Below are positions 32,488 through 57,621 of a stretch of 64,000 bases of DNA, piece after piece. Below the pieces are notes generated by a model that did no database searches, was not told the origin of the DNA, and saw nothing but the letters and a program-made list of their open reading frames with translations. Each line of letters opens with the position of its first letter. The stretch's first letter is position 1. A program made the translations under genes and the position numbers. The stretch spans positions 313,635 through 377,634 of the forward strand of contig LFCR01000004.1 of the NCBI GenBank assembly GCA_001189215.1, in the 5' to 3' direction. Source of the DNA: Parcubacteria bacterium C7867-008. Its GTDB lineage: Bacteria; Patescibacteriota; Minisyncoccia; Phycocordibacterales; Phycocordibacteraceae.

Positions 32488-32514
32488 TTTTTCTAAGGGT
32501 GTTCAGGACTTTCT

Positions 32515-33187: not shown

Positions 33188-34378
33188 CTACTTGCCACTC
33201 TTAGGAGCCTTGGCGGCTTTCCGTTCGGGCTTCCCGTCTTTCGTCTCTCGAAGGTCTTTCTCGAACTTCTGCTCAGGTGTTGGTTCTGGCACCTGTTCGC
33301 CTTTTGCTTCAGCGATCTTCTGCTGTGCGAATTCCTGGACCTTGGCGTAGCCGTCCTCGAGGATGTCAGGGCGCATCGTCTCGATCGCGGACCAGCTGCG
33401 AGTCCCGAAGGCGTAGTCGAGAGCGTCTACCTTGTTCTTCCTCTCGGCCGCGCTTGTGCTCGGCCAGATAGATACCAGGTAGCTTTCGATCTCCTCGAGC
33501 CAGCGCTTCCTTTCGAGGACCCACTTGCGCTTGTCCTCCTCGGTCCGGATCAGCTCGCCTGCGTCCCTTACTGCAGGGCTAAAACGGGCTGCTGCCGGGT
33601 CTTTGATGACCGCCTCGATTGCCGGTGCGAAGTCCTCGTAGGTCGGGTTCTTGAAGACCTTTCCGTCGAGGAGGTTGCCGCGGCCCTTGAGGACAGTTGC
33701 CTGTCGCCATACCTCTCGGTTCTTTCGAGTGATGAGCTCGTGGCGCTCCATGAGCACCAGGACATCGAACTCGTAGGCGGCATTCTTCTCGGCCTGCATC
33801 TTCACGCCTGTCTTCGTGAATTCTTTGCGGCCATCCTCATCTACCTCCTGCTCCATGCGATCCGACACGCGCCCGGTGGCGATGATGTGGAGCGGTGACT
33901 GGACCATCGGTATCGAGAAGTTCCGGTTCCAGTCGGACTTGATTGCCATCCAATCCTGGATTTGGAACGTCTGACGATTGAGCTTTCGCTTGTACGCCTC
34001 TTGGAAGTCCATCCAGATGTGAGTGATGCTGTCGATCACTACGATGTCCGAATATCCTTCCTGACAGAGCTTCATTGCCGTTACCAGGTCAGCGAGCGAG
34101 TGTGACTCGCGCACCATCGCTTCGATCCCGTGCTCCTTGAAGAGAGGGACCAGGAACTTTGATGCTTTCTCGGTGTCGATAAGGACAATGGGCTTTGTGC
34201 TGCCGATCTTCTTGTGAAGACCGATTGCTACTAATGCGGCACTCCAGCTCTTGCCGGTGCCAGGCTCTCCTTCAAAGGCTGCCTTGAAGTAGGGTTTGGT
34301 GTTCCCGATTGCGGTGAAGAAGTTTTCTTCAGTCGCTATTGGGACCACGCTTGGTCTTTCTAATGTTGCGGTAGTCAT
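33188..34378 (-). CDS. RecA-fold ATPase, AAA_24/Sak4-like (phage recombination/replication)
   Basis: Walker A GEPGTGKSW, Walker B IVVIDSITHIW. Confidence 0.55.
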   Translation of the reverse strand: MTTATLERPSVVPIATEENFFTAIGNTKPYFKAAFEGEPGTGKSWSAALVAIGLHKKIGSTKPIVLIDTEKASKFLVPLFKEHGIEAMVRESHSLADLVTAMKLCQEGYSDIVVIDSITHIWMDFQEAYKRKLNRQTFQIQDWMAIKSDWNRNFSIPMVQSPLHIIATGRVSDRMEQEVDEDGRKEFTKTGVKMQAEKNAAYEFDVLVLMERHELITRKNREVWRQATVLKGRGNLLDGKVFKNPTYEDFAPAIEAVIKDPAAARFSPAVRDAGELIRTEEDKRKWVLERKRWLEEIESYLVSIWPSTSAAERKNKVDALDYAFGTRSWSAIETMRPDILEDGYAKVQEFAQQKIAEAKGEQVPEPTPEQKFEKDLRETKDGKPERKAAKAPKSGK

Positions 34379-47600: not shown

Positions 47601-50600
47601 ATACCACCTACAGACAGAAGTGAGCCAGGTGAGGTTGTTCCGACACCAAAGAATCCAGATGAGTTGAAACGGCCTCGTTCAATACCACTGGTACTAAATC
47701 CAATGGTGTTGGCAGACCCATGGAAGATACCTGTACCCAAGTCACTTCCCCATGTAAATGATGGTGCGGACGCACTATCACCACTTAGACCAATGAACTG
47801 TGAACCGGTAGTGATGGAACCAGTCGTGTTGATAGTTGTTGCCGTAAGGCCTCCATTAAAGTCTTGGAGTTGGCTCCATTGATTAGCAGTGGTGGTACCA
47901 AACGCAAGTGATACGTTAGTTCCAGAAAGTTGAAGTGGGTATGCGAATGAGAGTGTATTGCCACCAATACATGAACCGTTAATTGCGAAACATCCATTCG
48001 TGAGGTTAATACCGCCTGATGATTGGAACGTTGAGGTTGCAGTGGTGAAGTTTGCGATTCCTTGTATTGAGAGGAGTGAACCAGGAGTTGAGGTACCGAT
48101 ACCAACATTTCCGTTATTGAGGATATTAAACAGAGTTGTTGTGGCGGTAGGTGAACTAGAGCCAATAGTGAAGAGATTGGTATTTGTTTCTCCACTGTTT
48201 GCATGGATGGAGAGTTTTGAGAATGGTGAAGAAGTACCAATGCCAACGTTACCGTTATAGAGCGCAGTAAATATTGGCGCAGAACTTGTCGCGTTGCTTA
48301 CTGAAAGTACTGAGATGTTCTGTGCACGAGATGTAGATGCATTAAATGTAGAGAAACCATTTACATTGAGACCATTTCCAGCCATGATAGTCCCCCATGC
48401 TGAAATATTTCCTCCAGAGAAAATGTTGTCGGTTGCGTTAAGTACGTTTGTTGCAATGTTTCCTGCCGTAAGTGCCGGTACATCAACGCCGTTGATATCA
48501 ATGATCTGAAGCCCCGCAGAAAGATCACCAACATACGCATACTTGCCGACGACAGTTACACCATATGCGGTACCTGATGTGTCATACGTACCCACAAGTA
48601 ATGGTTGTGCAGGATTGGTAACATCAAGTACCTGGAGACCCGAACTACCATCTCCAACATACGCATACCTTCCAGCAACAAAGATGCTGTGTGCAGTACC
48701 AGCAGTATCAAAGCTACCAACAGACGTTACTGATGCTGGGTTTGAGATATTAACGATTTGAACGCTTGCGAAAGGAGAACCTCCGTCTGAAATGTATGCG
48801 TACTTCCCAACCACCGTCACATCTTCAGCAATCCATGGGGTGTCATAGGTACTAACTAGTCTTGGATTTGCAGGGCTTGAAATATCAATGACGCGCAAAC
48901 CGCTGAAATCGTCTGCAACGTATGCATACTTACCAGCAATAGAGATGCCGCTTGGTGCTGAGAGGCCAGAAAGGAATCCGACACCGACTGGAGCAGTTGG
49001 GTTTGAAATATCAATCACGACGACATTTGCCCCTGTGCCATCAGTAACATACGCATACCTACCCACTATCGCAACACCATTGTAATCAAAAGCGCTAATA
49101 CTGTAGTTTCCTACCAGTGCTGGAGCCGTTGGATTTGAGATATCGATAACCTGAAGACCGCTTCCCGAGTCTGCGATGTACGCGTATTTACCTGAGATAG
49201 CAATTGCACCAGCGACACCAGGAGTGTCGTACGTACCTACAAGAACAGGTAGTGCAGGGTTTGAAACATCGATAATCTGAAGGCCGCTACCCGCATCTGC
49301 GACGTAAGCGTAACTACCTATAACTTGTGCAACTACAGCAGAACCTGCTGTGTTGTATGTTCCAAGTAGGGTTGGATTTCCAACAGCAGTCTGCACAAAG
49401 TTTCCTCCTGCAAGCGCAAACTTCGCAAATGGCGATGTTGTACCGATACCAACACGTCCTGCATTTGAAACAATAAAGCTTGTTGCTGACGAAGAACCAA
49501 CAACAAACGCTGGTGCGGTGCCGAGGGTTGCTATTGGATTAACAGAGAGTTGTGCCCATGGTGTTGACGTACCGACACCGAAATTACCCGTGCTACTCAC
49601 TCTCGCCTTTTCAGAACCACTTACATAAAATACGTGACTACCTGAGACTGGCACTATGTAATCAAGCTGACTTCCGCTAACGCCCAAACCAAATACCGTA
49701 GAGCCATCGTCATACAATTTGAGCTTTGGATTGTTACCCGCTGAGCTAGAGAAGGTACCACCCAAAGATACTACGACCGGACTGGCAGTTGACTGACTTG
49801 TCTGAGAGCCTATTTGTAGATTCGATTGTGGGTTTGTTGTACCAATTCCAACATTTCCTGCATTTGAAACAATGAAGCTTGTTGCTGACGAAGATCCAAC
49901 AACAAACGCTGGTGCGGTACCGAGCGTTGCTATTGGATTAACCGAGAGTTGTGCCCATGGTGTTGTAGAAGCAACACCCACACGTCCAGCGTTGAGTATC
50001 GAAACTAACGTGGTTGGACTCGCAGCAATGCCACTCTGAAAATTGAAATTTCCAGTAGCAGCACGGAAATTCACGTTTCCATTTGATCCATCATTATAGA
50101 ACCCAAAACCATTTGCGCCGGCGTCTGCTGTACGGTTCGAAGAGTTATAGTAGAAACCTGCAGTACTGGATGTATCGTTTTTAAAGACTACGATTGAGTG
50201 CGCTGTTGCACCTGCGCTTGAATTTTGGAAACTAAGTGGTGCAAATTGACCGCTGACTGATGTTGCAACTGTGAAGGTGTCAGTAGTATATATTTTTCCA
50301 TCGACGGAAAAGCGCTGTGCGGGTGTTGTGGTTCCTATACCCACATATCCTGAGTTTGATACTAGGAAGCTTGTTGCAGAGGACGAGCCGATTACGAATG
50401 CTGGTGATGTACCGAGAGTAGCTGTTGGGTTAATTGAGAGCTGTGCCCACGGTGTTGAAGTTCCGAGACCAAGGAATTTGTTTGATTCACTCCAGAAGAA
50501 GTTTGCTGCTGCAGAAGACTGTGTGAGTTTTGTACCGTCACTGAATACAACACCTCCGTTATAGAAGGTGGTTGTTCCTGTACCACCACTTCCAAGTCCA

Positions 50601-53600
50601 AGAGTTCCTACAAGAGAACTGAGTGTGAGACATGTTCCATTAATTGCATAACACCCGCCTGTAAGATTGAGTCCGCCAGTACTGTAGAAAGTCGATGTTG
50701 CTGCAGTGAAGTTAGCAACACCTTCAATTGAGAGGAGTGATCCTGGTGAAGTCGTTGCGATACCAAGGAAACCACTTGAGTTAAACCGTGCGCGTTCAAT
50801 ACCGCTTGTGCTGAATCCAATTGCATTTGCACCAGCGTGGAATATTCCTGTAGTGAGATCAGACGCCCAAGTGAATGAAGGTGCTGATGCGCCATCAGCG
50901 TTAAGACCTATGAACTGTGAGCCAGTTGTGATGGAGCCTGAAGTGAGGATGGTTGTTGCCGTAAGTCCCCCGTTGAAATCTTGGAGTTGGCTCCATTGGT
51001 TGGCAGTCGTTGTACCAAATGCGAGTGATACGTTAGTTCCAGAAAGTTGAAGTGGGTATGCGAATGAGAGTGTATTACCACCAATACATGAACCGTTAAT
51101 TGCGAAACAACCGGAACTTAGGTTGATTCCTCCACTGCTATAGAAGGTTGATGTTGCAGTGCCAAAGTTAGCAATACCTTGGATGGAGAGGAGTGAACCA
51201 GGTGTTGAAGTACCTATACCAACCCTACCTCCATTACTGACCAAGAAGGTTGTTGCAGATGATGAACCGACAACAAATGCTGGGGCGGATCCGTCACTTG
51301 CGATTGGATTTACTGATAGGTTTGCCCATGGCGTGGTAGATCCAACACCAAGCTTACCGATATAGTAGCTCGTATCGTACCCTATACGCGCATAGTCCTT
51401 ATAGGTTCCATCGTTGCGGAATCCTGAGAATAGGAAGAAAGCATTTGATGAATTGACAGTCTCACGGACACTTCGAATATCGGTAAGGACGCGTCCAGAA
51501 CCTATACTTCCAGCGGGATTGATCTGAAGCGTGATATTCGCAAACTGGTTGGCATTGTTGCCCGTATTTGTATTCTCCATTACGAAGGTACGACCAGCAT
51601 CTCCCATATCGGTATTTGCTGCATATGTACTGGTGTCTGATTTCTGGAGTGTTAGGAGACCGCGCACATCAGTACCCCCGATAGCCCAGCCATTTGTTAC
51701 TGCACCTTGGCCCGCATAGAGTATGGTACCTCCTGCAACACCCTGAGGGCTGACGGTGAGTGCACCGTTTGCAGCAACAGTGAATGACGTGTAGTTACTT
51801 CCATCATACCCAACACGCAACTGTTCCGTAGTACTTACCGCATGAAGCTTAGCTGCAGGCGCAGCGGTTCCGATACCCACACGTCCTGCATTTGTAATCA
51901 CAAAGTTGGTTGCAGACGATGAACCAACAACAAATGATGGTGCTGTACCGTTTGCAGCTGTTGGGTTAACGGAGAGTTGCCCCCATGGAGTGGTTGAAGC
52001 AAGAGCAACCGTTGATGTGAAGTTGTTTGCAGCACCCCAGGTATTTACTGTTGTGGTACCAAAGGCGAGTGAGATTACATCCGATGAATTAATTAATGGG
52101 TAGGTAAACACGAGTGGTACTTGATAATCAGTACCTGCTGAAGCAACTGAAAGGACACCAGCAGTTGCTTTAAGCAGTCCGGTGAGTGATGTATTAACGG
52201 TGGTGAGATTAGGAGCAGAGACAAGTGTTCCAATCGTAGATGTTGCATTAATGCGTGCATCTGCACGGGCATCTGTGAAGTATCGATTTGTAAGACCTTC
52301 AGCAAGTGCATCCGTAGTAGTTGCACTGAAGTATGAGTAGAAGCGCTCACCAAAGTTTGTCAGATTTACTGCATTCAAGTAATAACTTCCCTCCTGTCCA
52401 TCAAACGTACCGGTCCAGTCACCGGTGCGATCGAGAGTAAGAACACCTGCGGTGTTTACAAGACCACTACCGGTGAGTGAGGTGAAGTATGAGCTGTTGA
52501 GACCGAAGGTGGTGGTGTTGAGTGAGGTGGTGGTTGCGTTGCCAGCAGTGAGTGCACCGGTGACTGCAAGGGCACCGCCGATCGTAGCGTTCCCTGAAGT
52601 TCGTAGCGTGCCTGCAACGGTGTTAAGTATCCCGACACCAATACCGCCAGTGAAGTATCCTGAGCCACTTACTGACAATTGGGTAGGCGCTGTAGTTGTT
52701 GCGATACCGAGACGTGAAGAGATGTACTGCTGCCCAATTACCTCAAAGATGCTGTTTGAGGTACTTGTTGCACTACCACCAATTACTACAACATTTGATG
52801 TGTCTTGCGGGTAAATAAGTCCTGATGATGTAGCAAATACACCATCACCACCACCCCCACCTGAAATGGTCTGATCAAGGCCCCATGCAGGAAGACCTGC
52901 CTGAACCTTGAGTACCTGGCCGGCAGAGCCAATTGGTAGGGTTGTTAGGTTGCCGCTACCATCCGCAAAGAGAATATCTCCAGAATTATAGGTAGAAATG
53001 CCCGTTCCTCCGTTCACCTGTGCAAGAACACCCGTGTGATTAGCGAGATCTAGGTAATAACTTCCCTCCTGTCCATCAAACGTACCGGTCCAGTCACCGG
53101 TGCGATCAAGCGTCAGAACACCTGCAGTGTTTACAAGACCACTACCGGTGAGTGAGGTGAAGTATGAGCTGTTGAGACCGAAGGTGGTGGTGTTGAGTGA
53201 TGTGGTGGTTGCGTTGCCAGCGATAAGTGAAGAAAGGAAACTTGGGCCAGAAACAGTAAGTGCGGTTGTAGAAGCACCCCCGTTGAACTGCTGAAGTGCA
53301 TTCCATTGATTTGCGGTGGTGGTACCGAACGCAAGTGAGACTGAGTTAATCGCACGGACGAGAGGATATGCGAACGAAAGCGGATTCTCGTAATCAACTC
53401 CAGCAACTGCAGGTGAAAGGACACCTGCAGTTGCTTTAAGAATTCCGGTAAGTGATGTGGCCACCGTACCAAGATTTGGCGCTGAGGTAAGAGTACCGAT
53501 TGTTGATGTTGCATTGATGCGCGCATCCGCACGAGCATTTGTGAAGTATAGATTTGTAATGCCTTCTGCAAGTGCATCAGTAGTCTTTGTGGTGAACCAG

Positions 53601-55864
53601 TAGTCAGTTGAAGTTGTAGAGAAATAATTGTTTGTACTATCGAGACCAAGTACACCATTCACCACAGAAAGTCCGAGACCAGTGAGATCAGTAACGTAAT
53701 CACTACCGAGTGCAATCGCGCCACTTGCAATGCGTGGCAAGGTTGAAGTGCCCGTTCCTGTTGCGTTGAAGATATCTCCCGTAATCGTACCTGCAACCGT
53801 GAGAAGTGATGCTGGTGTAGTAGTACCGATACCAACGTTACCGCTCGTATCAATGGTTACGCGTGCAATGTTGTTCGTTATGAACTGAAGTGGATTTACA
53901 TCAAGGGTACCAAGTACGGCAGTGGCACCATATGAATTTCCTCCTTGTTCAAAAGAAGTACCGCTCGACGTTGTTCCGGTGAATGTAAGAACACCGTTAA
54001 CAACAGTAAGACCAGTACCAGCGAAATCGGTTATGTAGTCACCACCGATACCAAATGAATTCACTACAAGGTTAGGTAGTGTTGATGTTGCGCTTAGAGA
54101 TGTTGCGGTGAAGAACGGTGCGCTTATCTCTCCAGAACTTGTGAGCATGCCACCGAGAGTGAGTGTTCCATCAAGAGTTGAATCGCCAGTTACATGTAGT
54201 GAGCTTGCAGTAATATCGCCTCCGTTTACTACATCACCACCTCCACCACCACTCGAACTGCGACGAATGAGGCGTGCAAGACTCTCACTCACGCCTGTAA
54301 GGCGCATATCGAGCATTTCCTTCGTAACGCCACCTTCTGTTGAGTTATAGAAATTCTGAATATTCGTTACATTTGTGCTGTTTCCGCCTGTACCGTAGCC
54401 AATTCCGTAGTTTGGACGTGAAGCATCCCCAGGGATAGTAACGGCAGGGGGAAGCGGTACAACTGCAAGGTTTCTATTGCCTCGTAGGAATGCGAGCACG
54501 CGGTCAATACCTGTATGGACAGCGGCCTGCAAGCCATGAATTGCTTCGTAGGTAGCTAGTGCAACGCGGCGTCCAGCATTCAAGAATGACTCAGACGATA
54601 CTGGAGTAAATGGTGAGAATGACGCTGGGTTCGCAACAATCGTTGACACGTCAGCTGTATTTATTTCAGGGAGAGAGACATTTGGAATATTAGAGGCTGA
54701 TGCAAATAGTGCGTCTGTGGCGGCAGGAACATCAATTCGTGCGAGTGATACTGCGCCTCTCATCGCAAGAAGCTGATTGTCGATAGTCTGTTGAGTAGCA
54801 AGAGCGAGCGAACGAATGTTTGTGTTTGCACCTTCCACAAAAGCTATTGCTGCTGGACCCGCATTAATTTCTGCATCTGCTGCATATGCGACCACTGTGT
54901 TCGAACCTTCAGCCCAAGATGTAATTCCATATGCATATGCATCGAGCATTGAACCTGATGTACTTGGTGCGCGGGCAATCAGATCACGAGTAGTTGCTGC
55001 AACGGAGAGAGTATTCTCGCCTGCACGATTAATGCCGAGATTATATGTATCAAGTAATGAATACAACACATCTCGTGTATCCGAGCCGAAGGTAATATAT
55101 CCATCAAGTGCGCGTGCTGTAAGTGACACATCGCCCCCTATAAAACGACTGAACGCGCGCTCGGTGTGAGCGCGCGAATGCTGTAGCGTTGCAGCGCGTG
55201 CTGCTGCAACGTTGTACGCAATAATCCGGTGTCCTGTTTCTGCGCGTGCATCAGGCACATCAATACGCGCAAGCATTGAACGTATTGTTGCGCTGTCGAT
55301 TGCAGGTACAAGTGCTTTTGCAAACTGTGTACGTTCTTGAGGAATAGCATTCAGTGTTGCTGTAGCTGTTGACGCAACACGGAGCCGCGGCTCCGTTGCA
55401 GAATCACTATTTGATACTGCACGAACCGCATTCATCGCAAACGAACCTGCATGTTCAACAACAGAACCAATGGGGCCAAATGCTGCATAGACACTTCCGC
55501 CCATAACGATAAGTGATGCAATAAATGCTGCTGCTGGAGCACGTAGTACTGAAGCATAAGGGCTTCGGACTGTGGCACGAGACACTTTCTTGTTCCTATT
55601 GTCTATTTTTGAGGCGTTCCTTTGTGCCTGCTGATATTCCTTTTCGCGAGTCTGCGAAAGTTCTGTTGCAATATCGCGCTTTCGATCATCTTGCTCGCGA
55701 ACAAACTGCTCGAGTGAATCACGATCAATCAACCACGTTCGACCAACTTGAGTTCCGGTAATTTTTCCTGAGCGACAGAGGCGGGAAAGGTAGTCAGCAT
55801 TGTACCCCGACAGCGATGCTGCGTCCTTAGTGGAGAGAAGATTTTTTTGAAGGATCAAAGTCAT
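38624..55864 (-). CDS. giant multidomain surface protein (5,746 aa): N-terminal HTH, single TM, LVIVD propellers, phage-fibre repeats, S74-like domain
   Basis: One uninterrupted 17,241-nt ORF. Excisionase/MerR-type HTH at aa 1-60; a TM helix at about aa 108-130. A ~45-aa module (PWAQLSxNP...APxFVxGSSxATxFxVxNxGxVGIGT) occurs in more than 13 copies. Two LVIVD-repeat blocks carry GKYAYVADxxSGLQIIDISNP. Phage_fibre_2-like NTAxGxxALxxNTTG repeats, a SDERLKDINGL...ILYHWN S74-like chaperone domain, an Ig-like domain and a PTPAPEPA linker follow. Confidence 0.85.
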   Translation of the reverse strand: MTLILQKNLLSTKDAASLSGYNADYLSRLCRSGKITGTQVGRTWLIDRDSLEQFVREQDDRKRDIATELSQTREKEYQQAQRNASKIDNRNKKVSRATVRSPYASVLRAPAAAFIASLIVMGGSVYAAFGPIGSVVEHAGSFAMNAVRAVSNSDSATEPRLRVASTATATLNAIPQERTQFAKALVPAIDSATIRSMLARIDVPDARAETGHRIIAYNVAAARAATLQHSRAHTERAFSRFIGGDVSLTARALDGYITFGSDTRDVLYSLLDTYNLGINRAGENTLSVAATTRDLIARAPSTSGSMLDAYAYGITSWAEGSNTVVAYAADAEINAGPAAIAFVEGANTNIRSLALATQQTIDNQLLAMRGAVSLARIDVPAATDALFASASNIPNVSLPEINTADVSTIVANPASFSPFTPVSSESFLNAGRRVALATYEAIHGLQAAVHTGIDRVLAFLRGNRNLAVVPLPPAVTIPGDASRPNYGIGYGTGGNSTNVTNIQNFYNSTEGGVTKEMLDMRLTGVSESLARLIRRSSSGGGGGDVVNGGDITASSLHVTGDSTLDGTLTLGGMLTSSGEISAPFFTATSLSATSTLPNLVVNSFGIGGDYITDFAGTGLTVVNGVLTFTGTTSSGTSFEQGGNSYGATAVLGTLDVNPLQFITNNIARVTIDTSGNVGIGTTTPASLLTVAGTITGDIFNATGTGTSTLPRIASGAIALGSDYVTDLTGLGLSVVNGVLGLDSTNNYFSTTSTDYWFTTKTTDALAEGITNLYFTNARADARINATSTIGTLTSAPNLGTVATSLTGILKATAGVLSPAVAGVDYENPLSFAYPLVRAINSVSLAFGTTTANQWNALQQFNGGASTTALTVSGPSFLSSLIAGNATTTSLNTTTFGLNSSYFTSLTGSGLVNTAGVLTLDRTGDWTGTFDGQEGSYYLDLANHTGVLAQVNGGTGISTYNSGDILFADGSGNLTTLPIGSAGQVLKVQAGLPAWGLDQTISGGGGGDGVFATSSGLIYPQDTSNVVVIGGSATSTSNSIFEVIGQQYISSRLGIATTTAPTQLSVSGSGYFTGGIGVGILNTVAGTLRTSGNATIGGALAVTGALTAGNATTTSLNTTTFGLNSSYFTSLTGSGLVNTAGVLTLDRTGDWTGTFDGQEGSYYLNAVNLTNFGERFYSYFSATTTDALAEGLTNRYFTDARADARINATSTIGTLVSAPNLTTVNTSLTGLLKATAGVLSVASAGTDYQVPLVFTYPLINSSDVISLAFGTTTVNTWGAANNFTSTVALASTTPWGQLSVNPTAANGTAPSFVVGSSSATNFVITNAGRVGIGTAAPAAKLHAVSTTEQLRVGYDGSNYTSFTVAANGALTVSPQGVAGGTILYAGQGAVTNGWAIGGTDVRGLLTLQKSDTSTYAANTDMGDAGRTFVMENTNTGNNANQFANITLQINPAGSIGSGRVLTDIRSVRETVNSSNAFFLFSGFRNDGTYKDYARIGYDTSYYIGKLGVGSTTPWANLSVNPIASDGSAPAFVVGSSSATTFLVSNGGRVGIGTSTPGSLLSIQGIANFGTATSTFYSSGGINLSSGCFAINGSCIGGNTLSFAYPLQLSGTNVSLAFGTTTANQWSQLQDFNGGLTATTILTSGSITTGSQFIGLNADGASAPSFTWASDLTTGIFHAGANAIGFSTSGIERARFNSSGFLGIATTSPGSLLSIEGVANFTAATSTFYSTGGLNLTGGCYAINGTCLTLSSLVGTLGLGSGGTGTTTFYNGGVVFSDGTKLTQSSAAANFFWSESNKFLGLGTSTPWAQLSINPTATLGTSPAFVIGSSSATSFLVSNSGYVGIGTTTPAQRFSVDGKIYTTDTFTVATSVSGQFAPLSFQNSSAGATAHSIVVFKNDTSSTAGFYYNSSNRTADAGANGFGFYNDGSNGNVNFRAATGNFNFQSGIAASPTTLVSILNAGRVGVASTTPWAQLSVNPIATLGTAPAFVVGSSSATSFIVSNAGNVGIGTTNPQSNLQIGSQTSQSTASPVVVSLGGTFSSSAGNNPKLKLYDDGSTVFGLGVSGSQLDYIVPVSGSHVFYVSGSEKARVSSTGNFGVGTSTPWAQLSVNPIATLGTAPAFVVGSSSATSFIVSNAGRVGIGTTSPFAKFALAGGNFVQTAVGNPTLLGTYNTAGSAVVAQVIGSYAYVADAGSGLQIIDVSNPALPVLVGTYDTPGVAGAIAISGKYAYIADSGSGLQVIDISNPTAPALVGNYSISAFDYNGVAIVGRYAYVTDGTGANVVVIDISNPTAPVGVGFLSGLSAPSGISIAGKYAYVADDFSGLRVIDISSPANPRLVSTYDTPWIAEDVTVVGKYAYISDGGSPFASVQIVNISNPASVTSVGSFDTAGTAHSIFVAGRYAYVGDGSSGLQVLDVTNPAQPLLVGTYDTSGTAYGVTVVGKYAYVGDLSAGLQIIDINGVDVPALTAGNIATNVLNATDNIFSGGNISAWGTIMAGNGLNVNGFSTFNASTSRAQNISVLSVSNATSSAPIFTALYNGNVGIGTSSPFSKLSIHANSGETNTNLFTIGSSSPTATTTLFNILNNGNVGIGTSTPGSLLSIQGIANFTTATSTFQSSGGINLTNGCFAINGSCIGGNTLSFAYPLQLSGTNVSLAFGTTTANQWSQLQDFNGGLTATTINTTGSITTGSQFIGLSGDSASAPSFTWGSDLGTGIFHGSANTIGFSTSGIERGRFNSSGFFGVGTTSPGSLLSVGGIANFTTATSTFYSTGGLNLAAGCYAINGTCLSLSSLGGTLGLGSGGTGTTTFYNGGVVFSDGTKLTQSSAAANFFWSESNARLGLGTTTPYQTLSVVGTTTATGGFNVDSNTNLLSYQGSTTISVLGTSNFFGGLGANGSPTKTTGARNVFLGTGAGYGATASDGVYIGNNAGFGSSTLGANSGAFNIGIGTLALSTNTTGNNNIAIGGSALGSNTTGIRNQAIGTSALGSNTTASNNSAFGATALSSNTTGAANSAFGVFAMTNLLSGSNNTAVGVRAGGAITTGGDNTFLGTQSGTSGTGYITTGGNNIGIGFNTRFASATANNQLNIGNLLFGTLPATTSATSFLDATTGQIGIASSSPYAKLSIHANTGSTDKTLFAIGSSTLTATTTLFNILNNGNVGIGTTTPGSLLSIEGIVNFTNATSTFSSTGGINLTNGCFAVNGTCVGGNTLSFSYPLQLSGTNVSLAFGTTTANQWSQLQDFNGGLTATTINTTGSITTGSQFIGLNADGASAPSFTWASDLGTGIFHAGANTIGFTTSGIERARFNSSGFLGIATTSPSAALSVEGNFLVHGTATIDGLGSGLVKSTNGLLSVAVSGTDYQAPLTATYPIQLSSNILSLAFGTTTANTWGAANNFTSTVALASTTPWAQLSINPTAANGLAPSFAIGSSSATNFVVTNAGLVGIGTSSPFAKLALAGGNFIQTAFGNPTLMGTYDTPGQSFGVQVSGKYAYVADDSGGLQIIDISNPASPTLAGTYSSGAFIADVYVSGKYAYITDDTGALKVIDISNPTSPTLVGSYIGVDIPSGVYVSGKYAYVGYNSAGLLVIDISNPASPTLAGTFNTTGFATDVYVSGKYAYVADDTAGLQIIDISNPVAPSLAGTYNTTGFAAAVYVSGKYAYVADASSGLQIVDISNPVAPSLAGTYNTTGAAGGVYVSGKYAYVADGADGVQVVDISNAASPVLIGTFDTSGSTADVYVSGKYAYVADASSGLQIVDINGTEVPSLYAGNIATNVLNVTENITANGDIYAWGSLNAGSGLNVNGFSSFSASTTKSQNVSILSINNATSTAPIFTALYNGNVGLGTSTPWAQLSINPTATNATAPAFAIGSSTGTSFVVASTTNVGIGTAFPAAKLNISTAIEGDGLLITQTGTNFSPAIKLARSGINTTALALSGAANSWFVGAAQNDLAIRSNFNTKINIGIDNNAGTGIPTLTLAGSGTAALNTIQAGFGTTSPWGMVSINQSGNGTRPSFVVGSSTKTDFMVAGNGFVGVGSTTPWAQLSINPTAANGTAPAFSIGSSTATSFLVTSAGRVGIGTSTPGSTLSVGGSAYVSGFVVAQGASLSNTSGTLSFLPNTTALLVNADPAQVNRAVRITSSPYTIDIADVSSGVGLSATDGTNNAILSDSVIGAGINVTGATYGVYASSVTNKNYFGGSVGVATTTPWGRLSINPIASNGTSPAFVIGSSTATNFVVTNAGLVGIGTSTPGSLLSIQGIANFSTATSTFSSTGGINLTSGCFAINGTCVGGSSFSNTLANGGTATTTFYNGGVVFSDGTKLTQSSDPANFFWSESNKFLGLGTSTPWGRLSINPVFSSTGGINLTAGCFAINGTCVGAGSFSNTLAAGGTGTTTFYNGGVVFSDGSKLTQSASAANFFWSESTKNLGIGTSSPYARLSVAGEVVGSFFSATNTAATSTFAGALATANLKQFNNGVAQFSLDNGQFNFIRDFSSGLSLTPIGKIGVGTSSPMGILSIAGREASTGNGLDGLVVYADDASQFVELFDIAGTGGRIILNAGKGGGDDGIFGGGDGGALLFTAGDGGPYNGGSAGNGGDVFLAGGAVGSGGIGGRDGNVLLGVTANGDLRGNVGIASSTPWAQLSINPLATYGSVPSFAIGFSSTGGINLTAGCFAINGTCVGAGSFSNTLAAGGTATTSFYNGGVVFSDGTKLTQSSAAANFFWSESNTRLGLGTSTPTALLSINPTAALGSAPAFVIGSSTRSYLKVDANGQMTQYTVGASNPIVFGVDAGAPSYGAISLNGSLGDSTMVGFFGGGDSNLYFQTPTSGRIVFRANGTVGTTGTAQVNSAGFSINTNATNSSLNVLGNLGLGATYAGITAPTNGAIIEGFTGVGSSSPWGRLSVNPSAADGTAPSFVIGSSTGVKFIVTNSGYVGIGTATPAPGTAGRATLVIHDPTGNTGNELRLTGGNTAGRLYTNSSQFGLITETNDREIVISAGGTSSGVSIGANSTTRISVLGNTGNVGISSTTPWGSFSVNPNAIGTAPAFVVGSSSATSFLVSNGGSVGIGTTTPGSLLSIAGIANFTTATSTFYSSGGINLTSGCFAMNGVCLSTGSSFTNTLASGGTATTTFYNGGIVFSDGSKLTQAANSGASILKWDNTNGRLGIGTTTPNWLLSVSGAAGVRFKTTTDVSDAFAIENSVGSTTFNVSTVDSASSIFAVGTSTGSTYFMVGNGGNIGVGTTTPTAQLSTSGSVRFATFGAGTLQTDSLGNLSVSSDERLKDINGLFTRGLAEIQGLNPILYHWNATSSLDRSTLYAGFSAQNVQSVIPEAVDLGPQGYLSLSDRPILAASVNAIKDLAGRLEVLSMSTTTLGSRVSKLEHPDAEQPSEPKSLVASDINAQSLTLTGNALATGFIAPATPITFTIASTTGVLPSEILVEGGVDLYKAATYAITGVQSLTAQTALLAGRIDAVELRVAMLEAIASSTPGTGGTLTLTGLKDLLAQAGILIQNGIARFGSLAFTNLIAAPAADGTSSVATSTIAVGTTETIVTNPLMHTSSKIFVTITSPLNGSWYIREKQEGSFTITLASAQTEDVTFDYFIVQTEEQTQVASVAAPFTPPTPSAGEPTPTEPEPSVPGAPTITLNGDAAVDIAQGAYWADPGATATDAQGNDLTSQIAVTGTVDVNTSGLYTINYSVVDGVGQSAGVSRMVHVGAPQLPASEPTPTPAPEPAPTPAPEPAPTPAPEPAPAPVVLSAS
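38653..38724 (-). repeat. 3 x 24-bp perfect tandem repeat (encodes PT linker)
   Basis: GAGCTGGTTCCGGTGCTGGAGTAG appears three times exactly, in-frame, encoding (PTPAPEPA)x3. Confidence 0.9.
44500..45480 (-). repeat. LVIVD-repeat beta-propeller block 2 (coding, within giant gene)
   Basis: Seven or more units of SGKYAYVADxxxGLQIIDISNPxxPxLxGTY; approximate limits. Confidence 0.6.
48300..49330 (-). repeat. LVIVD-repeat beta-propeller block 1 (coding, within giant gene)
   Basis: Eight units starting GSYAYVADAGSGLQIIDVSNP; approximate limits. Confidence 0.6.
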
Positions 55865-56619
55865 GTCGGATATCCGAATTAACTAAATTCTATCGCACTA
55901 ATTCAGAATCTCTTCACTTTTATTTGTGGATAAAATTTACTATTTCCTCATGAACGTTTTTTAAGAAATTAATAGTGAATTCGGATACTGAAAAGTAATG
56001 AATTTTGATTCAAAATAGTTGCATCTAGCTCTTAGACTACCGTTAATTTTAAATTCTTTGAGAAGATTTAAATTTCTCGACCTAAAATCAAGCAATGCAG
56101 GTGGCAATTTCAGAAAGTCTCTACTGACATTCAGTACATCTATCCGCACAAATTGAACGCAATGAGCGAATTTGTAGAATAAGTTGTCAAAGTGTTTAAA
56201 ACGATGACTAGATTGCACTATTTAATCTAATTATTCATTTCCTGCACATATTTTATATATAGTGGTCGAGTATCCGATATACCTAGTATTTACTTACTAT
56301 TTTAATAATACTTATTTCCTATTAATCTTTTTGTTTAATAGCAGATAGCTTACTTGAAATACTCTGTGTCCAAACGAGACTGACACGAACTGCATATCTA
56401 TATGGAAATATATAAGTCTCATCTATAAATTCCTTTGCGTCGAGTATTTATACCTATGTATACGTTTAAATTGCTTAGAACGCATTTAAATGCCTTGTTT
56501 ATTCTTTAGTATAGGCAAAAACTCACTTATACGTGCAACATTAGTTTCTATAAATGAAAACTGCGCCTCATATTGGCGCAGTTTTCATTTATTTTTTGCC
56601 GAGATAACTATTCCTTTAT
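55865..56619. promoter_or_regulatory. 755-bp AT-rich non-coding leader/promoter region of the giant gene
   Basis: No credible ORF. Contains a 12-bp palindrome TCGGATATCCGA abutting the start codon, and a GTATCCGA(A/T) motif three times (55866, 55978 inverted, 56269). Confidence 0.5.
56556..56597. terminator. bidirectional intrinsic terminator
   Basis: GAAAACTGCGCC-tcatatt-GGCGCAGTTTTC perfect 12-bp stem followed by ATTTATTTTTT; it lies 23 nt past the stop of the 56620-57621 gene. Confidence 0.75.
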
Positions 56620-57621
56620 TTACTTAGTATAAGTGCTCGTTCCACCGAGAAAATCAAATATTGGTAGCAACATATTTGTGTCTTTAAGATAACGATCTGC
56701 AAAACCTGTACCTACTGCTGTAGTGGCTAGAGTAAGAAGAATGAGTGCAAGAAGGCCGGCGCGAACAATAATGGATCCTGAACCAGAATGAGTTCTTCTA
56801 CCTAGCATACGACGCTGCTTACGTGCCTCAGCAATAGCCTGTTTGCGCTCTTTCTTGCTTGGAACATGTACTTCCTGCTCTTCTAAAGCCTCTTCACGCT
56901 CTGCTTCTGTTGAATGATGTATCAAGACTGGCTCTGAACCTTGTTCTATCTCATCAAACTCAGGCTCTTCGATAGTTGCTATATGAGTATTTATAACTAC
57001 TGGTTCAGGCATCTCAACCACTGCAGGTGCTCGATATGCGGTGAAAGGAACTGAAATAACCTCATCTTCAGGATCTTCTTCCTCAATAACAGTGCTGTGC
57101 GTCTCTTTAAATGCCTGTATATTCTCTTCTATCTCGAGTTCACGATCATGTTCTTCCTCGCGTGCATCGATTATTTGAGGTGTTTCAATGAACGTATCTT
57201 GCTTTTGAGCAAACCATTCTTTCCACGCAGACTGCATATCTGAGAGAGATTCGGCAGTATCACCTGGCTCTTGAGCTTCATCAGGAGCTTCAATAGGCAT
57301 GGGGCGCTCTACAACGGGCATAACGGGCATTGAGGGGACCGTATCAGCAACATAGACAGGATTTTCCCACGTTGAAGAAGATACAGTCTCATCTTTTGGC
57401 ATAGCTATAACAGATTCTAAAACTGGTTCTGCGTGTGCATCTCCTCCGAAACGATGAGCACGTATAGAAGTCTCAAGTACATACCAGCTTCGTCCAACCA
57501 TACGAGCCTCTACATGTCCTTCGCGACATAGCTGCCCAACGTAATCCTTTGCGTACCCAGTTATATCTGCAGCCTTTTTAGACGAGATATATTGCTTGCC
57601 GTCGATAGTAAGTTCATTCAT
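56620..57621 (-). CDS. HTH (excisionase/MerR-like) domain membrane protein, paralogous N-terminus to giant protein
   Basis: N-terminal KKAADITGYAKDYVGQLCREGHVEARMVGRSWYVL is very similar to the giant protein N-terminus (KDAASLSGYNADYLSRLCRSGKITGTQVGRTWLI). It has an acidic middle region and a C-terminal TM helix (IIVRAGLLALILLTLATTAVG). Confidence 0.6.
   Translation of the reverse strand: MNELTIDGKQYISSKKAADITGYAKDYVGQLCREGHVEARMVGRSWYVLETSIRAHRFGGDAHAEPVLESVIAMPKDETVSSSTWENPVYVADTVPSMPVMPVVERPMPIEAPDEAQEPGDTAESLSDMQSAWKEWFAQKQDTFIETPQIIDAREEEHDRELEIEENIQAFKETHSTVIEEEDPEDEVISVPFTAYRAPAVVEMPEPVVINTHIATIEEPEFDEIEQGSEPVLIHHSTEAEREEALEEQEVHVPSKKERKQAIAEARKQRRMLGRRTHSGSGSIIVRAGLLALILLTLATTAVGTGFADRYLKDTNMLLPIFDFLGGTSTYTK

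What the first reader, a model, noticed from the sequence alone, without database searches (positions are those of the whole stretch)
55865..57621. Paralogous HTH-TM N-termini on two tandem genes flanking an AT-rich leader with a repeated TATCCGA motif and a start-codon palindrome
The 333-aa protein (56620-57621) and the giant protein share a highly similar ~45-aa N-terminal HTH (AAxxxGYxxDYxxxLCRxG...GRxWxx) followed by a TM helix. The 755-bp AT-rich gap between them has no ORF. It contains a 12-bp perfect palindrome TCGGATATCCGA directly after the giant gene ATG (55865-55876). Its half-site GTATCCGA(A/T) recurs at 55978-55988 (inverted) and 56269-56280. This looks like an operator set. A speculative model is that the membrane-tethered HTH domains bind these sites (ToxR/CadC-like membrane-bound regulation or autoregulation). 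Alternatively the HTH-TM module is a novel DNA-tethering or uptake-related device.
Basis: partly seen in the sequence, partly recalled or inferred. Interest (0 to 1): 0.65.

Follow-up and report, generated by a model that had tools for sequence, protein, structure and literature searches.

The report
Conserved operator before giant membrane-tethered regulator
In a whole class of ultra-small (Parcubacteria/Paceibacteria) bacteria, a giant surface protein that carries a DNA-binding domain on its cytoplasmic tip is preceded by an almost invariant, one-per-locus DNA palindrome at its own promoter, which most likely lets the membrane-anchored protein (and its small neighbouring paralogue) switch its own gene off.

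Summary
The window is Parcubacteria bacterium C7867-008. The palindrome TCGGATATCCGA lies at 55866-55877, directly upstream of the ATG of a 5746-aa gene on the minus strand. Both proteins start with an excisionase/MerR-type winged helix (HTH_17). In the 333-aa protein the TM helix is C-terminal, about 220 residues from the HTH.

In the window alone the motif is only modestly unusual. The comparative evidence is strong. In 72 species loci the order is short HTH protein, AT-rich gap (median 590 bp), giant HTH-TM protein. In 64 loci the 70 nt before the giant gene read TTATCC(A/C)CA ... CCGAAAT ... TAnnAT-n-TAGTTAA-TTCGGATATCCGAC. This module occurs once per locus in 1.9 Mb. It keeps its distance to the -10-like box, not to the start codon. 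It has no consensus RNA fold and no conserved ORF.

Operator variants occur almost only where the giant protein's recognition helix has lost a cysteine. I read this as a dedicated promoter/operator, most likely bound by the membrane-tethered HTHs for autorepression. Binding is inferred, not shown. oriC, dif and riboregulator readings are not supported. I found no description of it in the papers searched.

The parts
56620..57621 (-). Gene A: 333-aa tail-anchored protein. It has an N-terminal winged helix (residues ~3-58; HTH 57457-57591), a conserved TLTDMQSAWKEWF helix, an acidic low-confidence linker, a basic patch, a C-terminal TM helix (56707-56775) and a short conserved tail ...DFLGGTSTYTK.
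   Evidence: ORF. HTH_17 at 20.9 bits, below the Pfam cut-off. 1567 homologues, full-length, named Parcubacteria/Paceibacterota where named. Alignment shows the N-terminal 60 aa nearly invariant. AF2 model has residues 1-60 at pLDDT 89-96. Foldseek best hits are Xis, BldC, RdfS, TraN and RacA.
56550..56592 (-). Perfect 18-bp-stem hairpin followed by a T-run, 28 nt after the stop codon of gene A. Probable intrinsic terminator of A; it reads as a hairpin on both strands.
   Evidence: Inverted repeat I2, 100% complementary. Terminator scan. The weak Rfam E-value hits all map to this hairpin only.
55865..56619 (-). 755-bp AT-rich intergenic control region between A and B.
   Evidence: 27-33% GC against ~47%. 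A gap is present in 72/72 loci with both genes, median 590 bp, always AT-richer than both genes. No tRNA, no Rfam family, no conserved ORF.
56265..56286 (-). O2: upstream degenerate second copy of the module (CTAGGTATATCGGATACTCGAC), 400 nt before B's ATG.
   Evidence: PWM 14.6 bits, the only secondary hit in the window. Same position in L002 (401 nt). Analogous second copies lie 261-279 nt upstream in L013, L016, L023, L033 and L037. Secondary hits are 16-fold denser in gaps than in flanks. Conserved in the 5-way alignment.
55980..55988 (-). Isolated half-site GTATCCGAA (same orientation as the right half of O1), at -124..-116 from B's ATG.
   Evidence: Conserved as (T/C)CCGA(A/C)nT(C/A)GCTA only in the close relatives L002, L003, L004 and L006. 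Not in the class-wide consensus.
55947..55954 (-). TTCATGAG box, conserved in the window's clade and recurring as TTCATGA(A/G) in many other loci.
   Evidence: Invariant block. Visible in many rows but weak in the class-wide consensus.
55925..55933 (-). TTATCCACA: a single element identical to the DnaA-box consensus, at -69..-61 from B's ATG.
   Evidence: One of two perfect matches in 64 kb. (T/C)TATCC(A/C)CA is present at this fixed position in nearly all loci. Most gaps hold only this one box with at most 1 mismatch, so there is no cluster.
55900..55906 (-). CTGAATT: the window's degenerate version of the conserved CCGAAAT box (-42..-36). This box is the inverse of the AATTCGG left edge of O1.
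   Evidence: Consensus CgaAAtA in 64 loci. Many loci read (T)ATCCGAAA here.
55879..55892 (-). -10-like TAGAAT (55887-55892) plus the invariant TAGTTAA (55879-55885). Probable core promoter of gene B.
   Evidence: TAnnAT or TAnnCT lies exactly 8 nt upstream of TTCGG in 61 of 64 loci. High information content. The TSS was not determined.
55865..55878 (-). O1: TTCGGATATCCGAC, containing the perfect palindrome TCGGATATCCGA (55866-55877). It abuts B's ATG.
   Evidence: Conserved in 64/66 loci with at most 4 mismatches. The right half is more conserved than the left. The 30-nt PWM hits once per locus in 1.9 Mb. The distance to the start codon varies (0, 8-11, 16-37 nt) while the distance to TAnnAT is fixed.
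38624..55864 (-). Gene B: 5746-aa giant protein. It has a cytoplasmic excisionase-type winged helix (residues 9-58; 55691-55840; recognition helix DYLSRLCRSG with Cys30), a 47-residue helix (48-94), a TM helix (~107-129; 55478-55546), then about 5600 extracytoplasmic residues with LVIVD repeats, Peptidase_S74 and a bacterial surface Ig-like domain.
   Evidence: AF2 model of residues 1-165: pLDDT 96-98 over residues 11-80. Foldseek hits: Xis, TraN, BldC, RacA, GlnR. The N-terminal module is found in 689 cluster representatives at E<=1e-10, many of 2000-7214 aa.

Best explanation
The gap is the control region of a two-gene module conserved across Paceibacteria (Parcubacteria). The palindrome is the core of a dedicated promoter/operator of the giant gene B. 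My proposed mechanism follows.

B is inserted N-in. Its excisionase/MerR-type winged helix therefore sits in the cytoplasm, on a ~47-residue helix below the membrane. The small paralogue A is tail-anchored and presents a nearly invariant copy of the same domain on a long acidic linker. One or both HTHs bind O1 (TTCGG-N3-TCCGAC). O1 lies just downstream of the -10-like TAnnAT-TAGTTAA block, so it overlaps the transcription start or initial transcribed region. Accumulated membrane protein would thus repress transcription of the 17-kb gene (negative autoregulation). The extra half-sites (CCGAAAT at -42, the -120 half-site, O2 at -400) would help by cooperative binding or looping.

Shown: the synteny; the sequence conservation; locus specificity; coupling to the -10-like box; absence of a conserved RNA structure or ORF; the DNA-binding fold; the partial operator/recognition-helix association. 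Inferred: topology (positive-inside rule); the transcription start; which protein binds; and that binding represses.
For: (1) Synteny Obg-GatB-A-gap-B holds from 73% down to ~30% identity of A.
(2) There is a class-wide consensus upstream of B in 64 loci. The same context occurs in about 57 of 112 exact-match metagenome hits, each followed by a B-type HTH ORF. The remaining hits sit in unrelated contexts.
(3) The 30-nt module occurs once per locus in 1.9 Mb, both strands. It is therefore not a general promoter motif.
(4) TAnnAT/TAnnCT is fixed 8 nt upstream of TTCGG in 61/64 loci. The distance to the start codon is 0 in 48 loci, 8-11 in 12 and 16-37 in 4. The element is tied to transcription, not translation.
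(5) RNAalifold on 47 sequences predicts 0 pairs. Variants of the UCGG/CCGA stem break pairing without compensation.
(6) Both N-termini are confident winged helices. Their nearest structures are Xis (rmsd 1.3-1.7 A, TM 0.68-0.73), TraN, BldC, RdfS, RacA and GlnR, all dsDNA binders.
(7) Operators with the left-half variant TTCG[T/C].. have a non-Cys residue at B's recognition-helix position 30 in 6 of the 7 properly anchored cases (L037 is the exception). Fisher's test on the script's table [[49,8],[2,6]], which also counts the mis-anchored L068 as a variant, gives p=8e-4, uncorrected for phylogeny. L020, L053 and the L036/L085/L028 group are separate lineages by both A and B-body similarity.
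(8) Second copies (O2) are 16-fold enriched in gaps. In L037 both O1 and O2 carry the same GCTCA variant.
(9) Some B relatives carry two HTHs in tandem before the TM helix, as expected for a domain that works in pairs on a two-fold site.
Against: No binding data of any kind exist. The covariation is partial and one-directional. Non-Cys B proteins with a canonical operator are common: the V/A/I/L clade, and P0141, P0227 and P0228, which I checked as a prediction and which all have canonical operators. L037 has a variant operator but keeps Cys. This fits relaxed constraint better than a specificity switch. The operator also lies within 100 bp of the codons concerned, so linkage is a confounder.

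A's HTH is invariant and so gives no covariation signal. The half-site centres are only ~8 bp apart, which is short for a classical dimer in successive major grooves. The TSS is unknown and no -35 element is conserved, so 'repressor position' is an inference. The perfectly conserved TTATCCACA box suggests that another factor (DnaA) also acts here. Only ~6-10 kb per genome was examined, so 'one site per genome' is not established.
Confidence: 0.5

Rival explanations
1. It is a dedicated promoter/operator of the giant gene, but it is read by some other factor: DnaA through the TTATCCACA box, another transcription factor, or an alternative sigma factor. On this reading the HTH-TM domains of A and B have different targets or a non-DNA role.
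For: A single element identical to the DnaA-box consensus is conserved at a fixed position (-69..-61) in nearly all loci. No -35 element is conserved, which suggests activator or alternative-sigma dependence. The HTH/operator covariation is weak and has counter-examples. Gene A's own promoter carries a different conserved motif (ACGAGACGAGATAG), which shows that conserved promoter-internal motifs are common in this clade.
Against: Two paralogous DNA-binding domains are encoded on either side of the site, with class-wide co-conservation of proteins and site. Operator variants are concentrated in genomes whose B recognition helix has changed. The module is unique to this locus in the sequence examined, as expected for a dedicated autoregulator.
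Confidence: 0.24
2. The HTHs do bind these sites, but the purpose is structural rather than regulatory. The locus is tethered to the membrane, like RacA anchoring or transertion. The 17-kb mRNA would then be translated next to the translocon, in bacteria reported to lack SRP.
For: RacA, a chromosome-anchoring MerR-like winged helix that binds a GC-rich 14-bp palindrome, is among the structural neighbours. B has an HTH-long helix-TM architecture. Parcubacteria are reported to lack ffh/ffs (PMC4508563). SecA lies 4 genes upstream, although that synteny may be incidental.
Against: The site abuts a -10-like box at a fixed distance, which is the signature of transcriptional control. A tether has no need to overlap the promoter. 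This reading is not exclusive of autoregulation.
Confidence: 0.12
3. The conserved sequence acts in the RNA, as a 5'-UTR element (hairpin UCGG-AUAU-CCGA or a long-range stem with the upstream TATCCGAATTCACTA) that controls translation initiation or mRNA stability of the giant gene.
For: The palindrome abuts the start codon in 48 of 64 loci. A 14/15 inverted repeat (55871-55885 / 55973-55987) could sequester the start region. No Shine-Dalgarno sequence is visible.
Against: RNAalifold finds no consensus structure in 47 sequences. Stem variants are not compensated. The 5' arm of the long-range stem varies without compensation in close relatives. In 16 loci 8-37 nt are inserted between the element and the start codon, while its distance to TAnnAT stays fixed. 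No Rfam match.
Confidence: 0.07
4. The AT-rich gap is a replication landmark: oriC (DnaA box plus AT-rich DNA) or the terminus/dif site (GC-skew sign change).
For: Perfect TTATCCACA. A long AT-rich gap conserved in position. The window's GC skew changes from + to - at ~56 kb, and GC3 skew differs on the two sides. The module is single-copy per locus.
Against: Only one DnaA-type box per gap in most loci, so no cluster. All genes on both sides are on the same strand, so there is no divergence or convergence. No dnaA-like gene in 64 kb. No match to the dif consensus with up to 3 mismatches. The skew polarity is that of a terminus, not an origin. It can be explained by B's composition and by the prophage at 1-35 kb. 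The element is locked to a gene start and a -10-like box.
Confidence: 0.03

Closest known systems
ToxR / TcpP / CadC-type membrane-integrated one-component transcription regulators
   Same: An N-terminal cytoplasmic DNA-binding domain, a single TM helix and an extracytoplasmic C-terminal part. They are thought to bind promoter DNA while inserted in the membrane. This is what the locus most likely works like.
   Different: Those proteins use an OmpR/PhoB-type winged helix (Trans_reg_C). Here the domain is excisionase/MerR-like HTH_17. Their outer domains are small sensors. Here the outer part is ~5600 aa of LVIVD propellers, Peptidase_S74 and Ig-like domains. Here the candidate target is the protein's own promoter, and a tail-anchored paralogue is encoded next door.
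TraN (pIP501) / AM32 (pAMbeta1): double excisionase-like repressors of conjugation operons
   Same: The best sequence-level PDB hit of B's N-terminus is AM32, E=0.12. The fold match to TraN is 26-29% identity over ~53 residues. Two excisionase-like winged helices act together on one DNA site near a promoter. Some B relatives likewise carry two tandem HTHs.
   Different: TraN/AM32 are small soluble plasmid proteins. They have no TM helix and no giant extracellular part. The statistics are weak (E ~0.03-0.1).
RacA (Bacillus subtilis chromosome anchor)
   Same: A MerR-like winged helix followed by a long helix. It binds a GC-rich 14-bp palindrome and links DNA to the membrane. It is a structural neighbour of both models.
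   Different: RacA is soluble and reaches the membrane through DivIVA. It binds many sites around oriC and is not known to be an autoregulator. Here there is a direct TM anchor and one site per locus at a promoter.
Excisionases (Pukovnik Xis, RdfS, Tn916 Xis) and BldC
   Same: The closest folds: rmsd 1.3-2.5 A, TM-score 0.55-0.78 on the target. Pfam HTH_17 and TIGR01764 membership of B.
   Different: Those are ~55-70-aa stand-alone proteins that bend DNA at att sites or bind head-to-tail repeats. No integrase or att context exists here. The domain is fused to a TM helix and a giant protein.
Notch / SREBP-type membrane-tethered transcription factors (eukaryotes)
   Same: A large extracellular adhesion-type region coupled through one TM helix to a cytoplasmic DNA-binding or transcription module. 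This is an analogy only.
   Different: No homology. No cleavage site or intramembrane protease was identified here. Release of the HTH is pure speculation.

Membership tests
HTH_17 / excisionase-family DNA-binding domain (Pfam PF12728, TIGR01764) | Profile match above the curated cut-off | tested here: met
   Giant protein B: PF12728 at 32.8 bits (cut-off 27), residues 9-58. TIGR01764 at 29.9 bits (cut-off 28.8).
HTH_17 / excisionase-family DNA-binding domain (Pfam PF12728, TIGR01764) | Profile match above the curated cut-off, for the 333-aa protein A | tested here: inconclusive
   PF12728 at 20.9 bits, below the cut-off of 27. No NCBIfam hit. However, A is 43% identical to B's domain, and a few homologues carry a precomputed PF12728 hit.
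HTH_17 / excisionase-family DNA-binding domain (Pfam PF12728, TIGR01764) | Winged-helix fold of the MerR/excisionase type (helix-turn-helix followed by a beta-hairpin wing) | tested here: met
   AF2 models with pLDDT 89-98 over the domain, showing helix-helix-strand-strand. Top Foldseek hits: Pukovnik Xis (rmsd 1.3-1.7 A), BldC, RdfS, TraN, RacA. Foldseek E-values are only ~0.02-0.3 because the domain is small.
HTH_17 / excisionase-family DNA-binding domain (Pfam PF12728, TIGR01764) | Sequence-specific binding to double-stranded DNA | not testable with these tools
   Only indirect evidence: a conserved palindrome next to the genes and a partial operator/helix association.
ToxR/CadC-like membrane-bound transcription regulators | OmpR/PhoB-type winged-helix DNA-binding domain (Trans_reg_C) | tested here: not met
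   No Trans_reg_C hit for A or B at E<=0.01. The fold is excisionase/MerR-like. It is therefore not a member; the resemblance is functional only.
ToxR/CadC-like membrane-bound transcription regulators | N-in single-pass topology with a cytoplasmic DNA-binding domain and an extracytoplasmic C-terminal domain | tested here: inconclusive
   B has one hydrophobic helix at ~107-129, preceded by a K/R-rich segment and followed by ~5600 residues with surface-type domains. Topology is predicted from sequence only. A is tail-anchored with only ~28 residues outside.
Bacterial operator (repressor site overlapping a promoter) | Two-fold symmetric site at a fixed position relative to core promoter elements, conserved with the regulator | tested here: met
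   TTCGG-N3-TCCGAC lies 8 nt downstream of TAnnAT in 61/64 loci, always beside the A/B genes. It occurs once per locus.
Bacterial operator (repressor site overlapping a promoter) | Mapped transcription start and demonstrated occupancy or repression | not testable with these tools
   No transcriptome or binding data were available. The simple sigma-70 scan found no canonical -35/-10 pair on the minus strand here.
oriC | Cluster of DnaA boxes next to an AT-rich unwinding element, usually near dnaA/dnaN, with divergent gene orientation and a GC-skew minimum | tested here: not met
   One box per gap in most loci. No dnaA signature in 64 kb. All genes are co-oriented. The skew changes + to -, which is a maximum, not a minimum.
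dif / XerCD site | 28-bp site matching the dif consensus (..CATAATnTAnATTATGTnAA..) | tested here: not met
   No match with up to 3 mismatches in the window.
Structured cis-regulatory RNA (riboswitch/leader) | Conserved secondary structure with compensatory changes, or an Rfam match | tested here: not met
   0 consensus pairs in 47 sequences. No Rfam hit at gathering score; the weak E-value hits all lie on A's terminator hairpin.

The most novel reading that the evidence does not exclude
The giant protein is a direct outside-to-gene signalling device. A ~5600-residue surface or adhesion structure is wired through one TM helix and a rigid helix to a DNA-binding domain that sits on its own promoter. 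Either of two things then happens. (a) The nascent N-terminal HTH, still tethered by ribosome, mRNA and RNA polymerase, acts in cis on O1. It holds the locus at the membrane, so that one 17-kb transcript is made and inserted at a time, in bacteria reported to lack SRP. Or (b) contact of the surface part with a host cell changes HTH pairing or occupancy, or releases the HTH by cleavage. That would couple host attachment to transcription in a Notch-like way. The tail-anchored paralogue A would be the partner on the invariant half-site.
Probability: 0.15. Interest if true: 0.9.

Novelty: new variant of a known kind. Interest (0 to 1): 0.72.

Why it matters
Paceibacteria are among the most abundant uncultivated bacteria, and almost nothing is known about their gene regulation or their contact with hosts. 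This locus gives a concrete, testable regulatory circuit:

- a 14-bp site;
- two ~60-residue domains that can be expressed on their own;
- a giant surface protein that is a prime candidate for host or particle attachment.

If the membrane-tethered HTHs do bind the site, this would be a membrane-integrated transcription regulator built on an excisionase fold and fused to a giant surface protein, conserved across a whole class. I found no description of such a case in the papers searched. It would bear on two questions. How do tiny cells limit the cost of a 17-kb gene? How is a very large N-in membrane protein targeted in bacteria reported to lack SRP? The conserved module is also a practical marker for the start of these often fragmented giant genes in metagenome assemblies.

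Tried and rejected
1. oriC. Prompted by the perfect TTATCCACA and the AT-rich gap. Rejected: a single box per gap, co-oriented genes, no dnaA signature, wrong skew polarity.
2. Terminus/dif. Prompted by the GC-skew sign change at ~56 kb. No dif-like site was found. The skew difference is confounded by the composition of B and by a prophage at 1-35 kb.
3. Structured RNA. No Rfam hit at gathering or E-value thresholds, no tRNA, and no RNAalifold consensus pairs.
4. Hidden small gene in the gap. All cross-locus peptide matches fall on the conserved promoter DNA in inconsistent frames and strands.
5. General promoter motif. Rejected because the 30-nt PWM hits only at B.
6. Specificity-switch covariation (Cys30 with operator G5). 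I tested the prediction on three more non-Cys B proteins (P0141, P0227, P0228). All have canonical operators, so only a weaker 'relaxed constraint' association survives.
7. Rosetta-stone idea that tandem-HTH B proteins replace A. Rejected: L088 and L089 keep gene A and the same operator.
8. The search for homologous proteins with B(1-200) returned only 2 hits, a limit of the word index.
9. Literature searches for a description of this module found nothing relevant.
10. The metagenome scan of the 17-mer gave no evidence of further regulon sites. The non-B hits lie in unrelated, apparently random contexts.
Full report
WHAT IS THERE

All genes in the window lie on the minus strand. From high to low coordinates the region reads:
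- SecA (61624-63945)
- an HI0933-like flavoprotein (60389-61642)
- Obg (59178-60179)
- GatB (57706-59124)
- a 333-aa protein, here called A (56620-57621)
- a 755-bp gap (55865-56619)
- a 5746-aa protein, here called B (38624-55864)
- a 653-aa protein with no family match, then GAPDH.

Protein A is 100% identical to a hypothetical protein of 'Parcubacteria bacterium C7867-008'. The gap has 27-33% G+C against about 47% in the flanking genes.

CHECKING THE OBSERVATION

The perfect palindrome TCGGATATCCGA is at 55866-55877, one base off the reported position. On the coding strand it lies immediately upstream of B's ATG, not after it. TATCCGA occurs 10 times in the window, and 4 of those lie within 412 bp of the gap. 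GTATCCGAW is at 55980-55988 and 56270-56278.

The two N-termini are paralogous: 43% identity over 40 residues, E=6e-11. B passes the curated cut-offs of Pfam HTH_17 and NCBIfam TIGR01764 'excisionase family DNA-binding protein'. A scores below the Pfam cut-off.

The TM claim needs correcting. B has its TM helix at about residues 107-129. A's only TM helix is C-terminal (about 283-305), so A is a tail-anchored protein.

In Markov simulations of the gap, a 12-bp palindrome is common (36% of runs). A G+C-containing 7-mer present four times is uncommon (1.1%). Taken alone, the window gives only modest evidence.

COMPARATIVE EVIDENCE

A has 1567 homologues at E<=1e-3. Most match over the full length, and the source names are Parcubacteria/Paceibacterota. 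Its first ~60 residues are nearly invariant (...GYAKDY[VI]GQLCREG...GR.WY...HRFG). A second block, TLTDMQSAWKEWF, and the C-terminal tail DFLGGTSTY.K are also conserved. The linker between them is acidic and variable.

In four relatives (73, 55, 47 and 43% identity) the order Obg-GatB-A-gap-B is the same, and the gap is 736-761 bp. A scan of one genome per species returned 80 loci. In 72 loci that held both genes, A is followed by a gap and then by a large ORF. That ORF begins M..LL.KNLISTKEAS.LSGY..DYL.RLCR.GKI.G.QVGR.W. The gap runs from 256 to 1781 bp (IQR 446-659, median 590). It is AT-richer than both genes in 72 of 72 loci.

B's N-terminal module (HTH, helix, TM) is found in 689 cluster representatives at E<=1e-10. 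Many of these are 2000-7214 aa long.

THE CONSERVED CIS MODULE

A five-way alignment of the gaps shows that most of the gap is unalignable but contains sharply conserved islands.

Across 64 anchored loci the consensus upstream of B, numbered from the ATG, is:
- tTATCC(A/C)CA at -69..-61
- CGAAAT at -41..-36
- TAnnAT at -28..-23
- TAGTTAA at -21..-15
- TTCGGATATCCGAC at -14..-1.

A 30-nt weight matrix of the proximal part scores 23-49 bits at these sites. In 1.9 Mb (both strands) of loci plus window it otherwise gives only a few weak matches. It is therefore not a general promoter signal.

TAnnAT or TAnnCT lies exactly 8 nt upstream of TTCGG in 61 of 64 loci. The distance from ...CCGAC to the start codon is 0 nt in 48 loci, 8-11 nt in 12 (a clade with TTG starts) and 16-37 nt in 4. 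The element is tied to a -10-like box, not to the start codon.

An exact-match scan of 241 million metagenome records for TAATTCGGWTATCCGAC found 112 matches. About 57 have the full promoter context and are followed by a B-type HTH ORF. The rest lie in unrelated contexts, as expected for chance matches of a 16-base pattern.

DNA OR RNA?

RNAalifold on 47 sequences returns no consensus pair. The natural variants of the UCGG/CCGA stem break pairing without compensation; examples are TTCGTTCATCCGAC, TTCGGCTACGCGAC and TTCGGCAACCTGAC. The long-range inverted repeat in the window (55871-55885 / 55973-55987, 14 of 15 complementary) has a 5' arm that varies without compensation in close relatives. 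No Rfam family matches. The sub-threshold hits all fall on the terminator hairpin of A at 56550-56592. No small ORF is conserved. The element therefore acts in DNA.

Its form is two outer blocks (TTCGG, TCCGAC) with a variable centre, and the right half is more conserved than the left. That is the form of a two-fold protein-binding site.

SECONDARY SITES

A 22-nt matrix finds extra copies 16 times more often in the gaps than in the flanks.

- The window's site at 56265-56286 (CTAGGTATATCGGATACTCGAC) lies 400 nt upstream of the ATG. L002 has a copy at 401 nt.
- The TTG-start clade (L013, L016, L033, L037) has a copy at 278-279 nt and L023 has one at 261 nt.
- In L037 both the primary and the secondary copy carry the same GCTCA variant. 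This argues for one reader of both sites, or for conversion between them.
- The CCGAAAT box at -42 is the inverse of the AATTCGG edge of the palindrome. Together they bracket the -10-like box.

THE PROTEINS

AF2 models put A residues 1-60 at pLDDT 89-96 and B residues 11-80 at 96-98. Both are winged helices. In B the domain runs into a continuous 47-residue helix (48-94), followed by the TM helix.

Foldseek against the PDB gives, for both models, mycobacteriophage Pukovnik Xis (rmsd 1.3-1.7 A, TM 0.68-0.73 on the target), TraN, BldC, RdfS, Tn916 Xis, RacA and GlnR. All are sequence-specific dsDNA binders. E-values are weak (0.02-0.3) because the domain is small. By sequence, the best PDB hit of B is AM32, a TraN relative, at E=0.12.

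The K/R-rich segment before B's TM helix, and the basic patch before A's, predict a cytoplasmic HTH by the positive-inside rule (inference). The rest of B carries LVIVD repeats, a Peptidase_S74 intramolecular-chaperone domain and a bacterial surface Ig-like domain. B is therefore a giant surface protein.

Some B relatives have two HTHs in tandem before the TM helix (P0132, P0133, P0139, P0145). Two such loci, L088 and L089, still have A upstream and the same operator.

LINK BETWEEN HTH AND SITE

Across the 65 analysed loci A's recognition helix is invariant, so it gives no covariation signal. B's recognition helix varies at the Cys of RLCR (Cys30 in the window).

Seven operators carry a pyrimidine in place of the second G of TTCGG. 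Six of those seven genomes have Ala, Val or Thr instead of Cys; L037 is the exception. Among the 57 loci that keep that G, 8 are non-Cys. The script's table also counts the mis-anchored L068 as a variant, giving [[49,8],[2,6]] and Fisher p=8e-4, uncorrected for phylogeny. By similarity of both A and the body of B, three groups sit among canonical relatives: L020, L053 and the L036/L085/L028 group. The coincidence has therefore arisen at least three times.

I then tested the prediction that other non-Cys B proteins would have variant operators. P0141 (RMAR), P0228 (RLAK) and P0227 (RLAR) all have canonical operators. So do the RLIR/RLLR proteins from the metagenome scan.

What survives is a one-directional association. 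Operator drift is seen almost only where the Cys has been lost. That fits a lost base contact and relaxed constraint. It is suggestive, not proof, and physical linkage (<100 bp) is a confounder.

MOST LIKELY MECHANISM

The module is the promoter/operator of B. O1 lies just downstream of the -10-like block, which is the classical position of a repressor site. The cytoplasmic, membrane-tethered HTH of B and/or A would bind it and shut off the 17-kb gene once enough protein is in the membrane. Upstream half-sites and O2 would assist by cooperativity or looping. In cells a few hundred nanometres across, a membrane-tethered domain on a 47-residue helix (B) or a ~220-residue flexible linker (A) can plausibly reach the nucleoid.

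The asymmetry of the site, with an invariant right half and a variable left half, matches an invariant A and a variable B. That makes an A/B heterodimer attractive, but this is speculation.

I put 0.5 on 'operator read by A/B for autoregulation'. I put about 0.85 on the weaker statement that this is a DNA-level, dedicated transcription-control element of B.

RIVALS

- Another factor reads the module. The fixed, single TTATCC(A/C)CA element is identical to the DnaA-box consensus, and DnaA may well act here as a transcription factor.
- The HTHs bind, but as a structural tether, like RacA or transertion. This is of interest because Parcubacteria are reported to lack SRP (PMC4508563).
- An RNA-level element. 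Not supported (see above).
- oriC or dif. Not supported: one box only, co-oriented genes, no dnaA signature in the window, no dif-like site, and terminus-type skew polarity confounded by composition.

COMPARISON WITH KNOWN SYSTEMS

Functionally the closest are the membrane-integrated one-component regulators ToxR, TcpP and CadC. Membership fails on the defining OmpR-type domain. Structurally the domains belong to the excisionase/MerR superfamily. TraN/AM32 (paired excisionase-like domains repressing a promoter) and RacA (a DNA-to-membrane anchor on a GC-rich palindrome) are the most instructive relatives.

Full-text searches found no description of this gene pair, of HTH-TM giant proteins in Patescibacteria, or of the motif. 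That is absence of evidence within an incomplete library.

VERDICT

The operator reading is supported by conservation. Binding by the tethered HTHs is plausible but unproven. This is a new variant of membrane-bound transcription control, conserved across a class of uncultivated bacteria and attached to a giant surface protein. Interest 0.72.

Noticed in passing
window 1-~35000 (minus-strand genes 42..34378): A block of co-oriented genes with much higher third-position G+C (0.5-0.8, against 0.30-0.45 for the genes from GAPDH to SecA) and 52-57% overall G+C. It encodes a large terminase, a Sak4-like annealing protein, a ParB-methyltransferase fusion and a transglycosylase/endolysin-like protein. 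It looks like a prophage or integrated element in a Parcubacteria genome, ending next to GAPDH (35589-36632). Mis-assembly or a chimaeric contig was not excluded.
   Followed up: partly
window 57622-57705 (upstream of gene A); the same region in ~80 loci: Gene A has its own conserved promoter-like region: CTGTTnATAA...CTATTTcAnACGAGACGAGAtAGnnTTATACT-N6-ATG. The TATACT hexamer (57628-57633) ends 6 nt before the ATG, which suggests a leaderless mRNA. The spacer holds a conserved direct repeat CGAGA-CGAGA (window ACAAGACGAGATAG, 57637-57650). This differs from the B module, and its reader is unknown.
   Followed up: partly
window 56590-56619; L002 ~7700-7730, L003, L004, L006, L088 5560-5620, L089 5570-5630: Just after A's stop codon the relatives share TAAATAAAGGGTATTnTATCTCGGATAGAAAT (the window has TATCTCGGCAAAA). 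It contains TCGGATA, the left half of the B operator. It also resembles an inverted copy of the CGAGATAG element of A's promoter. Gene A may therefore be bracketed by related sites.
   Followed up: no
window 55925-55933 and the equivalent position in ~60 loci: A single element identical to the DnaA-box consensus, TTATCCACA (or TTATCCCCA / CTATCCACA), lies at a fixed 46 nt upstream of the operator. It suggests that the giant gene may be coupled to DnaA. Alternatively, this box may be a third site type for the A/B HTHs, since it shares TATCC with the operator's right half.
   Followed up: partly
window ~56000 (GC-skew sign change); genes on both sides: GC skew of the + strand is positive from 1 to 56 kb and negative from 56 to 64 kb. 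Coding-strand GC3 skew is -0.1 to -0.33 for B and the genes downstream of it, but about 0 to +0.2 for A, GatB, Obg, HI0933 and SecA. This could be a replication-related switch or merely composition (giant protein, prophage). It is unresolved with 64 kb.
   Followed up: partly
P0132, P0133, P0139, P0145; L088 6001-6400; L089 6001-6400: A subfamily of B-type giant proteins (up to 7214 aa) carries two HTH_17 domains in tandem before the TM helix. It keeps gene A and the same operator upstream.
   Followed up: partly
L037 7181-7202 and 7440-7469: In this one species both the primary operator and the secondary copy 267 bp upstream carry the same GGAT->GCTC change. Its sister species have canonical sites, and its A and B HTHs show no unique substitution. 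Either the two sites evolved in concert or one converted the other. No explanation so far accounts for it.
   Followed up: no
window 56360-56460 (gap, sense positions ~160-260); alignment A1 columns 215-335: Two further islands are conserved in the window's clade. One is a palindrome, TACCTATATATAGGTA (the window has TATACATAGGTATAAATACTCGAC, which repeats the ATACTCGAC of O2). The other is a hairpin-like GTGTCAGnnTCnnTTGGACAC. Their function is unknown. They could be further protein sites or part of a transcript starting at O2.
   Followed up: no
window 36644-38605: The 653-aa protein encoded directly downstream of the giant gene has no Pfam or NCBIfam match. In L089 the corresponding position holds a second giant protein with Peptidase_S74 and Ig-like domains but no HTH. 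In L203 GAPDH follows B directly.
   Followed up: no
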